A stretch of 23,374 bases of DNA from a virus. Positions 2,261 to 4,545 of this stretch are shown here, one piece after another. The stretch lies in UHGV virus genome UHGV-0281963. One strand, given 5' to 3'. The notes below the pieces were generated by a model. It did not search any database. It saw only the letters and a list, made by a program, of their open reading frames with translations, and was not told the DNA's origin. Both the position numbers and the translations under genes were made by a program. Position 1 is the stretch's first letter. The number at the start of each line of letters is the position of its first letter.

Positions 2261-2275
2261 AATTAATGACTCCTG

Positions 2276-2298
2276 AAAAAGCCGGGCGATAACCCGGC
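2276..2298 (-). terminator. rho-independent terminator (minus-strand orientation)
   Basis: Stem gccggg / cccggc (2281-2298) followed on the minus strand by uuuuuc (plus A-run 2276-2280), immediately upstream of the RBS of the 129-aa ORF. Confidence 0.45.
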
Positions 2299-2646
2299 AT
2301 GGGGAAAGGAAAAATCACAGCTTCACTGCGGTATCAATGGCAATCACGCCGTGATCCTGCATCTTGCCGCTCTTCTCGGGGAAACGGATTTTTTTCAGAC
2401 CGTTGATCCAGCTGATTGCTATCTCAGTACGGTTACCCACCCGAAAGAAGATACAGCACACAGACCGCCGTACAGAAGTACAGCATCACCTGATGAATAA
2501 ATGTCATAGTTTCTTACCGTTATGGTTGATAATGAGAACTGTTTTCATTTAAAAAACCAATGTACGAAAGCATCTTTTCTTTACATTCTCCATTGGGATT
2601 ACCTCCGCCAGCTTCCATTCCTGCCGCTGGCGGCTTTTTTTAGCAA

Positions 2647-4545
2647 TTATGCGGCTGCTCCAGCTTTGTTTGCTTTAACTTCCACCGTATCAATAAGTAC
2701 AGGGTAGGTTTCTGCACTACCTGTAATATCCGTAATGACAAACCTGTTGAGTCCATTAGCAGTATTGGCCCATTTCACCAGGTCAAACGCCTGTCCATCC
2801 ACACCATCAAGCACCGGAGTAACATTAATGCTGTTACTGCCCTTAAATTTAAATGCAAGCGTATGCCAGTCATGGTCGAATGCGCCAAACGTGCCAAGTT
2901 CTTTTTGTTGATTAACTGTATGATGGTATGCAACATTAATACTGGCTTTATCTGTCTGGACAAAGAAAGAACTCAGATGGCCTTCACCACCCTCACCCGG
3001 CCATTCCGCTATTCGCCAGTACAAACCAAAGGCATACTTGTTTCTGGTTGTCTCAAGATTGACGTTTTCGGGGATTTTAAACCGGACAGCAATTTCTCCG
3101 CCTTTTTCCAGTAAAAGTTTTGCCTTGTCTGCAGCAATATCACAGTACATTGACCAGGATTTCGCGCTGTTATTTTTCTCAATTCGCAGAGCTTTATTGC
3201 CGCTGTCATCAACCAGTGTGCGTCTGCCATACATGCCGTCCCAGCCATAGGGTTTCAGCTGATTGTCTGTAGCTTTTTTGGCATCGTAAAAAATTACAGA
3301 CTCTGAGGTGGTAACCGGTCTGACCCCGGCAGTACCATTAACAAACGCAGAAGACTTACCCGCGCAGCTCAGAATCGCCGTTGCCAGACGGTCGGAAATA
3401 ATCCCACGGCGAGCCCATGAACTGAAATGGCTCGCCCTGTCCTGTGACGTCCAGGTGGCTGAGCTGTCACGCCATTTCGAACCGTAATAACCGATACCTG
3501 GAATGTCCGGGTCTTCTTCCGGTTTGTTCGTCGGCACATTCACCCCGTTCTCATCGGTCATGAACGGTACGAAATAGATATTCTTTTCCGTTTTATTTTT
3601 ATAGCTGCCGTACACCGTCTGGTACGTGGATTCGTTCTTCTGCTTCCAGAAATACGTCGTGTCCCCGCATATCCAGGGAACACCGCCAGCAGAGCCACCG
3701 ACGCACTGGCCTGCCATATCCGCCAGGTCTGCGCGGAATTTATCAACCAGCGCACCAAACTGTGCGGCATGATTTGCCGGCGTACCGCCAAAATCAAATT
3801 CCCCCTGCATCCACACCACGGCAAACAGCACATTTTTCGGGTTCTTCTCCAGTGCCGCTTTTGTTCGACCGATAAGGTCCTTATACAGCGGCTTGTCCAC
3901 ACCCCAGCGGGTTGAATTCTCCGAGGCGCCACTCGCGTCACTGTATGTGCCATCAGCTCCGGTGGTGAACGCTGAACCACCACGACAGCACGGAACCAGC
4001 AGAATGCCCGCATTCGCCGGTATAAACGGCAGCAGTTTTTTGGCGATATGCAGCCCCTGCCCCACGGTTCCGTACTGCCCCTTTGACAGGTCCGCTTTCG
4101 GATGGTTAAGACGGCTCATGTCCTGCACATCATGCAGACAATGGTCCGCCGGAATGATGTCGTTATATTTGCATGCTGCACCGCCCGGTGTCACCGTACT
4201 GCGACGCGCTAACTGTTTAATACGTGGATCAGGGCTGTCGAATGTATCCGGTAATGGCAGTCCCTCACCGTATGACATACCATTGGACTGACCAGCAAGC
4301 GCGATCACATAGTAATATTCTGGCGCAACAGAAGGCGCTGAGGTCGTCGGACGGTTGCCTGGCTCCTCTGGTGATGAGATGCTCCCCTCACTCACAACTG
4401 GCTGGATGAACTCCGCACCATAACCAGCTGTCGAAATCAGCGCACTACCATAAGGCTGCCACCCTTCCTTCAGTTTTTGAGTTATTCGTTTCGCAAGGTC
4501 TGACGGCGACGCCGCCCTGACAACATCATAGTGTTTAAATGTCAT
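2647..4545 (-). CDS. nanS: prophage-encoded sialate O-acetylesterase (NanS-p-like): N-terminal DUF1737-like domain plus SGNH/SASA esterase domain
   Basis: 632-aa ORF; N-terminus MTFKHYDVVRAASPSDLAKRITQKLKEGWQPYG matches the DUF1737 pattern as I recall it; GQSN catalytic-serine motif (VIALAGQSNGMSYG); RBS GGAGG 5 nt before ATG 4545. This family sits in the late region of Stx-type and related prophages. Confidence 0.85.
   Translation of the reverse strand: MTFKHYDVVRAASPSDLAKRITQKLKEGWQPYGSALISTAGYGAEFIQPVVSEGSISSPEEPGNRPTTSAPSVAPEYYYVIALAGQSNGMSYGEGLPLPDTFDSPDPRIKQLARRSTVTPGGAACKYNDIIPADHCLHDVQDMSRLNHPKADLSKGQYGTVGQGLHIAKKLLPFIPANAGILLVPCCRGGSAFTTGADGTYSDASGASENSTRWGVDKPLYKDLIGRTKAALEKNPKNVLFAVVWMQGEFDFGGTPANHAAQFGALVDKFRADLADMAGQCVGGSAGGVPWICGDTTYFWKQKNESTYQTVYGSYKNKTEKNIYFVPFMTDENGVNVPTNKPEEDPDIPGIGYYGSKWRDSSATWTSQDRASHFSSWARRGIISDRLATAILSCAGKSSAFVNGTAGVRPVTTSESVIFYDAKKATDNQLKPYGWDGMYGRRTLVDDSGNKALRIEKNNSAKSWSMYCDIAADKAKLLLEKGGEIAVRFKIPENVNLETTRNKYAFGLYWRIAEWPGEGGEGHLSSFFVQTDKASINVAYHHTVNQQKELGTFGAFDHDWHTLAFKFKGSNSINVTPVLDGVDGQAFDLVKWANTANGLNRFVITDITGSAETYPVLIDTVEVKANKAGAAA

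What the first reader, a model, noticed from the sequence alone, without database searches (positions are those of the whole stretch)
2261..2650. Late region appears deleted: nanS is followed almost directly by the tail-fibre region
In intact lambdoid phages nanS-p lies upstream of the lysis cassette, terminase, head and tail genes. Here only a terminator-flanked 129-aa moron and about 350 bp of non-coding DNA separate nanS from the tail-fibre gene. This implies a large deletion, so the prophage is probably defective but keeps nanS, tail fibre, toxin modules and the immunity region.
Basis: partly seen in the sequence, partly recalled or inferred. Interest (0 to 1): 0.45.

Follow-up and report, generated by a model that had tools for sequence, protein, structure and literature searches.

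The report
Prophage with its late genes deleted
This is a Shiga-toxin-phage-like E. coli prophage that has recently lost its lysis, DNA-packaging and head genes in two small-scar deletions, an ordinary example of prophage decay whose junctions can be mapped to the base.

Summary
All late genes lie on the minus strand. NanS-p (2647-4545) is followed by 386 bp, a 129-aa gene (1871-2260), then a collagen-repeat tail-fibre gene.

Intact relatives are 99.9-100% identical over the 12 kb right of position 2434. Alignment to them places a deletion junction at 2434-2439, inside the flagged interval. It joins codon 24 of the small DUF1378 gene to the last 39 codons of the major capsid gene. It removes 9.4 kb (10.2 kb in relatives carrying an extra moron): holin, lysozyme, Rz/Rz1, both terminase subunits, portal, a 335-aa head gene and most of the capsid gene.

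Both junctions show only 2 bp of exact microhomology.

- The "non-coding DNA" is gene remnants plus native intergenic sequence.
- The "moron" is the capsid cementing protein, 97% identical to phi24B gp67.
- The tail fibre is not intact.

The same double deletion occurs in two other metagenome contigs and in none of 5,426 complete E. coli genomes. This is ordinary prophage decay, of low novelty.

The parts
6104..6583 (-). Late antiterminator Q gene. It is intact; the true start is probably internal, giving 126-140 aa.
   Evidence: Pfam Phage_antitermQ, E = 3.1e-51. It is 100% identical to the intact relative L007.
4767..4973 (-). STnc100-type RNA element with a terminator hairpin at 4797-4778, lying upstream of nanS-p. 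It is unchanged by the deletions.
   Evidence: Rfam RF02076, 164 bits against a gathering score of 47. The hairpin was found.
2647..4545 (-). nanS-p, a 632-aa sialate O-acetylesterase and capsid-decoration protein. It is intact.
   Evidence: DUF1737 + SASA + DUF6645. PDB 3PT5 at 1.7e-118 and 6YP6 at 4.8e-42. The first ~393 residues align almost without substitution to phi24B gp84, including Tyr42 (74% identity overall). The exact same protein is encoded in 9 contigs that continue into the intact arrangement.
2508..2646 (.). Native nanS-p to DUF1378 intergenic spacer (139 bp).
   Evidence: It is collinear with the intact relatives L003 and L006.
2436..2507 (-). Remnant of the DUF1378 gene: codons 1-24 of 60. 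A TAA stop (2435-2433) was created at the junction.
   Evidence: tblastn places aa 1-24 at 100% identity on 2507-2436. The translation is MTFIHQVMLYFCTAVCVLYLLSGG*.
2434..2439 (.). Deletion junction J1. It removes 9,375 bp relative to the closest relatives and about 10.2 kb relative to L003 and L004. Exact microhomology is 2 bp (TA), within an imperfect 6-of-7 match.
   Evidence: BLAST segments abut with a 6-bp overlap.
2315..2433 (-). 3' remnant of the N4-gp56-family major capsid gene: codons 366-404 plus the stop. It has no start codon.
   Evidence: tblastn places MCP aa 366-404 at 100% identity on 2434-2318. Annotation comes from the intact relatives.
2281..2298 (-). Native hairpin and T-run between the capsid gene and the cement-protein gene.
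   Evidence: Found. The 1753-2439 segment that contains it is 99.3-99.6% identical to the intact relatives.
1871..2260 (-). 129-aa capsid cementing protein, the homologue of phi24B gp67. It is intact and is not a moron.
   Evidence: PHROG 486, E = 1.2e-59. It is 97% identical to phi24B vb_24B_31 and keeps His19. It is conserved in 188 phage records.
1840..1858 (-). Native hairpin and T-run downstream of the cement-protein gene.
   Evidence: Found. The 1753-2439 segment that contains it is 99.3-99.6% identical to the intact relatives.
1677..1820 (-). 47-aa fusion ORF. The first ~21 codons come from a 153-aa virion-module gene. It then runs out of frame into tail-fibre sequence and stops.
   Evidence: Translation. 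tblastn places hyp153 aa 1-24 here.
1753..1761 (.). Deletion junction J2, removing about 1,645 bp. Exact microhomology is 2 bp (TA), within an imperfect 7-of-9 match. Lost are most of the 153-aa gene, the 187-aa and 216-aa genes (positional counterparts of the phi24B adaptor-ring genes gp64 and gp62), and tail-fibre codons 1-16.
   Evidence: Gene content is taken from the annotations.
1..1752 (-). 5'-truncated lateral tail-fibre gene with a collagen-like shaft. It corresponds to residues 17-624 of a 677-aa protein and runs off the window. The first in-frame ATG is near 1660.
   Evidence: Pfam Collagen, Phage_fiber_2 and Peptidase_S74. The PHROG 366 match begins at profile position 20. tblastn places aa 17-624 here.

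Best explanation
The window holds the early, nin, Q and nanS-p region of a short-tailed Stx-phage-like prophage without stx (phi24B/933W-type late module; phi24B itself is classified in Traversvirus). Two recent illegitimate-recombination deletions have gutted its late operon.

Deletion 1 (junction 2434-2439) joins codon 24 of the DUF1378 gene to codon 366 of the major capsid gene. It removes about 9.4 kb: the rest of DUF1378, DUF826, holin, endolysin, Rz/Rz1, small and large terminase, portal, a 335-aa gene that by position corresponds to the Sp5 head-formation gene ORF61, and 90% of the capsid gene.

Deletion 2 (junction 1753-1761) removes about 1.6 kb. Lost are most of a 153-aa gene, the 187-aa and 216-aa genes (by position the counterparts of the phi24B adaptor-ring genes), and the start of the lateral tail-fibre gene.

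Both junctions share only 2 bp of exact microhomology. They carry no IS element, recombinase site or engineered scar. The likely mechanism is replication slippage or another RecA-independent end-joining event (inferred).

The result is a grounded prophage. By inference it cannot lyse its host, package DNA or build a head or tail by itself. It still carries:
- the repressor, N and Q regulators
- the replication genes
- the toxin-antitoxin modules
- intact copies of two capsid accessory proteins, NanS-p (decoration protein and esterase) and the 129-aa cement protein, which have lost the capsid they bind.

If Q still reads through the native hairpins, both would still be made on induction (inferred). 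The flanks differ from intact relatives by 0-3 SNPs in 12 kb, so the deletions are evolutionarily very recent.
For: - Gene order in intact relatives is Q, nanS-p, DUF1378, DUF826, holin, lysozyme, Rz, terS, terL, portal, 335-aa gene, MCP, 129-aa gene, 153-aa gene, 187-aa gene, adaptor, tail fibre.
- BLAST of the window against L003 and L004/L001 gives three collinear blocks that abut at 1753-1761 and 2434-2439.
- The closest intact relatives are L006, L007 and L009. They are 99.98-100% identical to window 2434-14545 (L007: 2434-8167). L006 and L007 run on through the whole late region to the 129-aa gene; L009 ends in DUF826.
- Three-way junction alignments show clean switches with 2 bp of exact microhomology.
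- Gene remnants give the event its polarity: DUF1378 aa 1-24, MCP aa 366-404, hyp153 aa 1-24, and tail fibre starting at aa 17. No other late protein is found in the window.
- The identical junction strings, 76 nt and 81 nt, occur in two other assemblies, L008 and L011, which appear from their contig names to come from different assemblers.
- The 129-aa protein is the phi24B gp67 cement protein and NanS-p is the gp84 decoration protein.
- In Sp5, the terminase, portal, ORF61, MCP, ORF65 and tail-fibre ORF67 genes are each essential for morphogenesis (PMC5155283).
Against: - Only 23.4 kb is visible. The window starts inside the tail-fibre gene, so a relocated copy of the missing segment elsewhere in the genome cannot be excluded.
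- No functional data exist on induction, lysis or particle formation.
- The three assemblies with the deletion differ only inside the collagen repeats. They may come from one strain or even one sample, so independent confirmation is weaker than it appears.
- The order of the two deletions is unknown, as is whether they arose in a single complex event. No intermediate with only one deletion was found.
Confidence: 0.93

Rival explanations
1. The junctions are assembly artefacts. A metagenome assembler wrongly joined non-adjacent parts of an intact prophage, or parts of two co-resident related prophages.
For: The window and both other deletion-bearing sequences (L008, L011) appear to be metagenome contigs that break in the collagen repeats. 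E. coli genomes often carry several related prophages, with a median of 2 and up to 20 matching places per genome.
Against: The joined sequences share only 2 bp of exact homology, or 6-9 bp imperfect. That is far below any assembler k-mer, so a de Bruijn graph has no path between them. Two such errors 680 bp apart would have to recur identically in assemblies that, judging from their contig names, were made with different assemblers (scaffold-type versus k141 contig).
Confidence: 0.03
2. This is not a loss but a natural alternative module arrangement. In that view the phage lineage never had lysis and head genes between nanS-p and the tail fibre, or keeps them elsewhere in the genome, and it is still viable.
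For: Lambdoid phages are highly mosaic. The region left of the window is not visible.
Against: Truncated gene fragments sit on both sides of each junction: 24 of 60 codons of DUF1378, the last 39 of 404 capsid codons without a start, 21 codons of the 153-aa gene, and a tail fibre lacking its start. These fragments only make sense as deletion scars. Relatives that are 99.98-100% identical in the flank carry the full region. None of about 188 phage records with the 129-aa gene, and none of 5,426 complete E. coli genomes, shows this arrangement.
Confidence: 0.02
3. The deletions are real and are kept by selection. The host benefits from a lysis-free element that is still inducible through the repressor and Q. 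That element supplies NanS-p esterase, toxin-antitoxin modules and superinfection immunity without the cost of lytic death, so it is a domesticated prophage rather than neutral decay.
For: nanS-p, Q, the upstream STnc100-type element, cI, N and the TA modules are all intact and identical to those of intact relatives. NanS-p esterases let lysogens grow on Neu5,9Ac2 and mucin glycans (PMC8065619). The deleted form was recovered in three assemblies.
Against: The deletion is so recent (0-3 SNPs in 12 kb) that intact retained genes say nothing about selection. The breakpoints cut through genes at arbitrary positions and leave useless remnants, including a crippled tail fibre. Without a lysis cassette it is unclear how NanS-p made on induction would leave the cell (inference). 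The three assemblies may represent a single strain.
Confidence: 0.1

Closest known systems
Intact stx-negative 933W/phi24B-type prophages of E. coli: GCA_031897295.1, GCA_027979865.1, GCA_041194355.1, O10:H32 NMBU-W12E19, strain cM8a and the O104:H4 outbreak strains.
   Same: The early, nin, Q and nanS-p region is 99-100% identical. The 129-aa gene and tail fibre are about 99% identical outside indels in the collagen repeats. Gene order is the same on both sides of each junction.
   Different: They keep the 9.4-10.2 kb block from DUF1378 to the capsid gene and the 1.6 kb adaptor block, both missing here. Some also carry an LPS core heptose(II)-phosphate phosphatase moron between Rz and terS, which the closest relatives lack.
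Stx phage phi24B (HM208303) and Sp5/933W, short-tailed Stx-converting phages (phi24B is classified in Traversvirus).
   Same: The late-module architecture is the same. NanS-p corresponds to gp84 (capsid decoration), the 129-aa protein to gp67 (capsid cement, 97% identical), and the tail fibre to gp61. The deleted genes correspond by order to gp83-gp69 and gp65-gp62.
   Different: The window has no stx operon and no tRNA genes. It has a different Q allele and a 197-aa DnaD_N-like gene between Q and nanS-p. The NanS-p C-terminal domain is diverged. The lysis, packaging, head and adaptor genes are deleted.
Cryptic or defective lambdoid prophages of E. coli (for example Rac, DLP12, Qin, and the CP-933 elements of O157:H7).
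   Same: These are lambdoid prophages made non-inducible as particles by internal deletions. They keep regulatory genes, recombination genes (recE/bet/gam here), toxin-antitoxin modules and accessory genes. This comparison rests on general knowledge; the CP-933K cryptic prophage is mentioned in PMC8065619.
   Different: This element is far younger. Its flanks are essentially identical to inducible-looking relatives, both junctions are still readable to the base, and no point-mutational decay is visible.

Membership tests
NanS-p (prophage sialate O-acetylesterase, phi24B gp84 type) | Three-domain architecture: N-terminal DUF1737, an SGNH/SASA esterase domain homologous to E. coli NanS, and a C-terminal jelly-roll domain. 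| tested here: met
   Pfam DUF1737 at 5e-18, SASA at 2.2e-10 and DUF6645 at 1.5e-28. PDB 3PT5 NanS at 1.7e-118 and 6YP6 NanS-p C-domain at 4.8e-42. Overall identity to phi24B vb_24B_21 is 74%, with the first ~393 residues aligning almost without substitution.
NanS-p (prophage sialate O-acetylesterase, phi24B gp84 type) | [quoted passage not shown] | tested here: not met
   The upstream context (Q, STnc100-type element) is kept. The lysis cassette that follows in every intact relative is missing, because deletion 1 removed it. This reflects the deletion, not a different family.
NanS-p (prophage sialate O-acetylesterase, phi24B gp84 type) | Esterase activity on Neu5,9Ac2. | not testable with these tools
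   Activity is only inferred from sequence identity to characterised enzymes (PMC8065619).
phi24B-type capsid cementing protein (gp67) | A protein of about 129 aa encoded directly downstream of the HK97-fold/N4-gp56-type major capsid gene, with an N-arm, an Ig-like domain and a His19 anchor. | tested here: met
   The 129-aa protein is 97% identical over its full length to phi24B vb_24B_31, and His19 is present. vb_24B_31 equals gp67 by CDS counting, anchored on gp61 (645 aa tail fibre), gp69, gp72 and gp84. Synteny after the capsid gene holds in all intact relatives. It matches PHROG 486, 'virion structural protein'. The fold itself was not modelled here.
Moron (independently transcribed accessory gene inserted in a late operon) | Patchy presence among related phages, a non-structural function, its own promoter and terminator, and often deviant composition. 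| tested here: not met
   The 129-aa gene is present at 95-99% identity in 180 of the 188 phage records that carry it, always in the structural module. It encodes a virion protein. The hairpins are native intercistronic elements of the intact late operon. No promoter-like site was found next to it.
Defective (cryptic) prophage produced by internal deletion | Absence of genes essential for lysis, packaging and morphogenesis that are present in close intact relatives, with truncated gene remnants at the breakpoints. | tested here: met
   Essentiality of terminase, portal, ORF61, MCP, ORF65 and the tail fibre was shown in Sp5 (PMC5155283).
Defective (cryptic) prophage produced by internal deletion | Failure to produce plaques, particles or lysis upon induction. 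| not testable with these tools
   This requires an induction experiment on the source strain.
Phage satellite or PICI-like element that hijacks a helper | Its own integrase and replication module, a packaging signal recognised by a helper terminase, capsid-redirection genes, and a conserved compact architecture across many hosts. | tested here: not met
   The architecture is an otherwise full-length prophage backbone. Its breakpoints fall at arbitrary positions inside genes, and it leaves non-functional remnants. The small-terminase region, where a pac site would usually lie, is deleted (inference). The arrangement is absent from 5,426 complete genomes and from the viral, genome and metagenome collections scanned.

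The most novel reading that the evidence does not exclude
The doubly deleted element may be a selected, domesticated module rather than neutral decay. In that case it would be a lysis-free, SOS- and Q-inducible expression unit for NanS-p, with the orphaned capsid cement protein alongside. It would give its host mucin-sialic-acid foraging, TA-mediated stabilisation and immunity without lytic death. It would also be a natural separation-of-function mutant that uncouples the metabolic role of NanS-p from its newly reported role as a capsid decoration protein.
Probability: 0.1. Interest if true: 0.35.

Novelty: already known. Interest (0 to 1): 0.13.

Why it matters
Its main value is for annotation. 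It shows that this nanS-p copy sits in a grounded prophage, so the element should not be counted as a potentially inducible or transducing phage. The 129-aa gene should be annotated as a capsid cement protein rather than as an accessory gene.

There are two minor points of wider interest. The two junctions are a clean, base-resolved example of microhomology-type deletion at the very start of prophage decay. The element also keeps both capsid accessory proteins, NanS-p and the cement protein, while lacking the capsid. That could serve as a natural control for asking whether NanS-p benefits the host independently of virions.

Tried and rejected
- Exact-match scans for the J1 30-mer and the J2 34-mer in genome contigs, viral contigs and metagenome contigs found nothing. 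The source and any wider distribution could therefore not be traced that way. Only the exact-protein look-up of NanS-p found the deletion elsewhere.
- Megablast of 1-6700 and of the J2-spanning 136-mer against 5,426 complete E. coli genomes found no record with either junction. No intermediate carrying only one deletion turned up.
- The PDB sequence search with the 129-aa protein gave no hit. Its identity as the cement protein therefore rests on 97% identity to phi24B gp67 and on the preprint, not on a deposited structure. I did not run a structure prediction because it would not change the verdict.
- An IS-mediated, site-specific or homologous-recombination origin was considered and rejected. 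There is no IS or recombinase gene at the junctions and no repeat longer than 9 bp.
- An engineered deletion was considered and rejected. There is no FRT or lox scar and no marker.
- No tRNA genes were found in the window, and no stx homology was seen. This is not a Stx-converting phage.
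Full report
**Anatomy of the region**

All genes in the left third of the window are on the minus strand. Read in the direction of transcription, the order is as follows.
- Antiterminator Q lies at 6104-6583 (Pfam Phage_antitermQ).
- A 197-aa DnaD_N-like gene lies at 5379-5972.
- An STnc100-type RNA element with a terminator hairpin lies at 4767-4973.
- A 632-aa protein is encoded at 2647-4545.
- A 386-bp gap follows.
- A 129-aa ORF lies at 1871-2260, between two hairpin and T-run elements (2298-2281 and 1858-1840).
- A long collagen-repeat reading frame then runs off the window at position 1.

The 632-aa protein is a genuine NanS-p. It has the DUF1737 + SASA + DUF6645 architecture. 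It matches solved NanS (3PT5, E = 1.7e-118) and the NanS-p C-terminal domain (6YP6, E = 4.8e-42).

**Comparison with intact relatives**

Megablast of 1-6700 against 5,426 complete E. coli genomes gave thousands of hits. The best-covering ones begin at window position 2434, and none spans it. Megablast of 1-2500 gave hits ending at 2439.

In annotated intact prophages the minus-strand gene order is as follows:
- Q, NanS-p, DUF1378, DUF826
- class II holin, lysozyme, lysis protein Rz, and in some an LPS heptose phosphatase moron
- small terminase, large terminase, portal, a 335-aa protein
- N4-gp56-family major capsid protein
- a 129-aa protein, a 153-aa protein, a 187-aa protein, a 216-aa adaptor protein
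- tail fibre (677 aa)

These prophages are in strain cM8a, O10:H32 NMBU-W12E19 and O104:H4 C227-11. Phage phi24B has the same order.

**Mapping the junctions**

BLAST of the window against cM8a (L003) and NMBU-W12E19 (L004/L001) gives three collinear blocks.
- Window 1-1761 is the tail fibre.
- Window 1753-2439 holds the 5' end of the 153-aa gene, the 129-aa gene and the 3' end of the capsid gene.
- Window 2434 onward holds the 5' end of DUF1378, nanS-p and the rest.

Two segments of the reference are therefore absent. About 10.2 kb is missing between 2439 and 2440, and about 1,645 bp between 1761 and 1762.

An exact-sequence look-up of the NanS-p protein found still closer relatives. NCBI assemblies GCA_031897295.1, GCA_027979865.1 and GCA_041194355.1, a 383-kb metagenome scaffold (L005) and contig L010 are 99.93-100% identical to the window between 2434 and 14545 or their own contig end (0-9 mismatches). 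L005, L006 and L007 then continue through the intact late region to the 129-aa gene, while L009 and L010 end soon after position 2434 in the intact arrangement. Against these relatives deletion 1 measures 9,375 bp, because they lack the phosphatase moron.

Three-way alignments show clean switches at both junctions. J1 has 2 bp of exact microhomology (TA) within an imperfect 6-of-7 match. J2 has TA within an imperfect 7-of-9 match.

**What the 'non-coding' DNA really is**

The interval 2261-2646 breaks down as follows.
- 2508-2646 is the native nanS-DUF1378 spacer.
- 2436-2507 holds DUF1378 codons 1-24, ended by a TAA formed at the junction.
- 2315-2433 holds the last 39 codons and the stop of the capsid gene.
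- 2261-2314 is the native capsid-to-129-aa spacer with its hairpin.

Downstream of the 129-aa gene, an ATG at 1820 opens the first ~21 codons of the 153-aa gene. That frame then runs out of frame into tail-fibre sequence and stops after 47 codons. The tail-fibre frame starts at its codon 17 with no start codon, and the first in-frame ATG is near 1660.

A tblastn of every late protein of the intact relatives against the whole window finds only these four fragments. There is no holin, lysozyme, Rz/Rz1, terminase, portal, 335-aa protein or adaptor.

**The 129-aa ORF is not a moron**

It matches PHROG 486, 'virion structural protein' in the head and packaging category, at E = 1.2e-59. It is present at 95-99% identity in 180 phage records of Stx-type phages. 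It is 97% identical over its full length to phi24B vb_24B_31.

Counting CDSs in HM208303 backwards from the 645-aa tail fibre (gp61) reproduces the preprint's assignments for gp62, gp64, gp69, gp72 and gp84. The count makes vb_24B_31 equal to gp67. The phi24B cryo-EM preprint (10.64898/2026.04.10.717836) shows that gp67 is the trimeric capsid cementing protein, anchored by His19. His19 is conserved here.

The same preprint reports that NanS-p (gp84) is itself a virion protein. Its DUF1737 domain forms hexamers that plug the centre of capsid hexons through Tyr42. The window's protein aligns to gp84 almost without substitution over its first ~393 residues, and Tyr42 is present.

By coincidence of the breakpoints, the two capsid accessory proteins survive next to each other while the capsid protein they bind is gone.

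**Consequences (inferred)**

In Sp5, knock-outs showed that terminase, portal (ORF60), ORF61, the major capsid protein (ORF62), ORF65 and the tail fibre (ORF67) are each essential for morphogenesis (PMC5155283). By position, all of them lie in the deleted segments, or in the case of ORF67 are truncated.

In phi24B the N-terminal beta-sandwich of the fibre docks on adaptor gp62. Here the first 16 codons of that domain are missing, and so is the gene that by position corresponds to gp62.

The prophage therefore cannot lyse the cell, package DNA, or assemble heads or tails on its own. These elements remain intact:
- Q, the upstream STnc100-type element and nanS-p
- the LexA-like repressor (15936-16643) and N (17253-17657)
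- the replication genes
- hok/sok, Doc/Fic and RelE/HTH
- the RecE-like/gam/bet genes

**Is it real, and how common is it?**

The joined sequences share at most 2 bp of exact identity, so no k-mer-based assembler could join them by mistake. Exact 76-nt and 81-nt junction strings occur in two other ENA metagenome contigs, L008 (22 kb scaffold) and L011 (a k141 contig).

Those two contigs differ from the window only at three or four positions inside the collagen repeats. They may represent one strain, or even re-assemblies of one sample.

Neither junction occurs in the 5,426 complete E. coli genomes. Neither occurs in the genome, viral or JGI metagenome collections. With 0-3 SNPs in 12 kb relative to intact relatives, the deletions are very recent.

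**Verdict**

Biologically this is ordinary early-stage prophage decay by illegitimate recombination. It is a known phenomenon in a well-known phage family, so interest and novelty are low. The one mildly interesting reading is that the element is selected as a lysis-free NanS-p and TA carrier. The data cannot test this, because the deletion is too young for conservation to be informative.

Noticed in passing
window 4767-4973 (-): A full-length match to the Rfam sRNA family STnc100 (164 bits) lies between the Q region and nanS-p and ends in a terminator hairpin at 4797-4778. In O104:H4-type relatives this conserved block sits directly downstream of Q. It may therefore be the late-promoter leader and tR' region rather than a free-standing sRNA.
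   Followed up: partly
window 5379-5972 (-): A 197-aa protein with a DnaD_N-like domain and a C-terminal Cys-rich tail (PHROG 34160) occupies the slot between Q and nanS-p, where Stx phages carry tRNAs and stx. It comes with a different Q allele. It is shared with NMBU-W12E19 and the closest relatives but is absent from the O104:H4 and cM8a prophages.
   Followed up: partly
window 8722-8909 (-), next to 7997-8668 (-): Rfam hits to the C4 antisense RNA (66 bits) and isrK (69 bits) lie in tandem just upstream of an ORF6N/P22_AR_C antirepressor gene. This looks like a P1/P7-style antisense-controlled antirepressor module inside the nin region.
   Followed up: no
window 8950-10960: Three addiction-type modules are clustered here. 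They are a RelE-like toxin with an HTH partner on the plus strand (about 8950-9692), a Doc/Fic toxin (9743-10237, minus strand), and hok with its sok antisense RNA (10636-10960, Rfam 117 bits).
   Followed up: partly
window 291-444 and about 330-433 (tail-fibre collagen repeats): The collagen-like Gly-X-Y shaft has a 63-nt length difference from relatives. It holds the only base differences among the three deletion-bearing assemblies. It is also where the other contigs end, so it is evidently a repeat that breaks short-read assembly and varies in length.
   Followed up: partly
window 2647-3370 (C-terminal third of NanS-p): NanS-p is mosaic. Residues 1 to about 393 align to phi24B gp84 almost without substitution. 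The C-terminal carbohydrate-binding and jelly-roll part is strongly diverged, giving 74% identity overall. Phage-database DNA hits break at window position 3370-3373.
   Followed up: partly
L003 25807-26388; L001 1399-1980; L002 3335-3916: Some intact relatives carry an oppositely oriented LPS core heptose(II)-phosphate phosphatase gene, a true moron, between Rz and the small terminase gene. The closest relatives (L005-L007) lack it. This explains the 10.2 kb versus 9.4 kb estimates for deletion 1.
   Followed up: yes
window 19878-23034 (+): The early-left operon carries a 690-aa RecE-like exonuclease followed by gam and a RecT/Bet-type annealing protein, whereas phi24B has a lambda-type Exo with Bet.
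   Followed up: no
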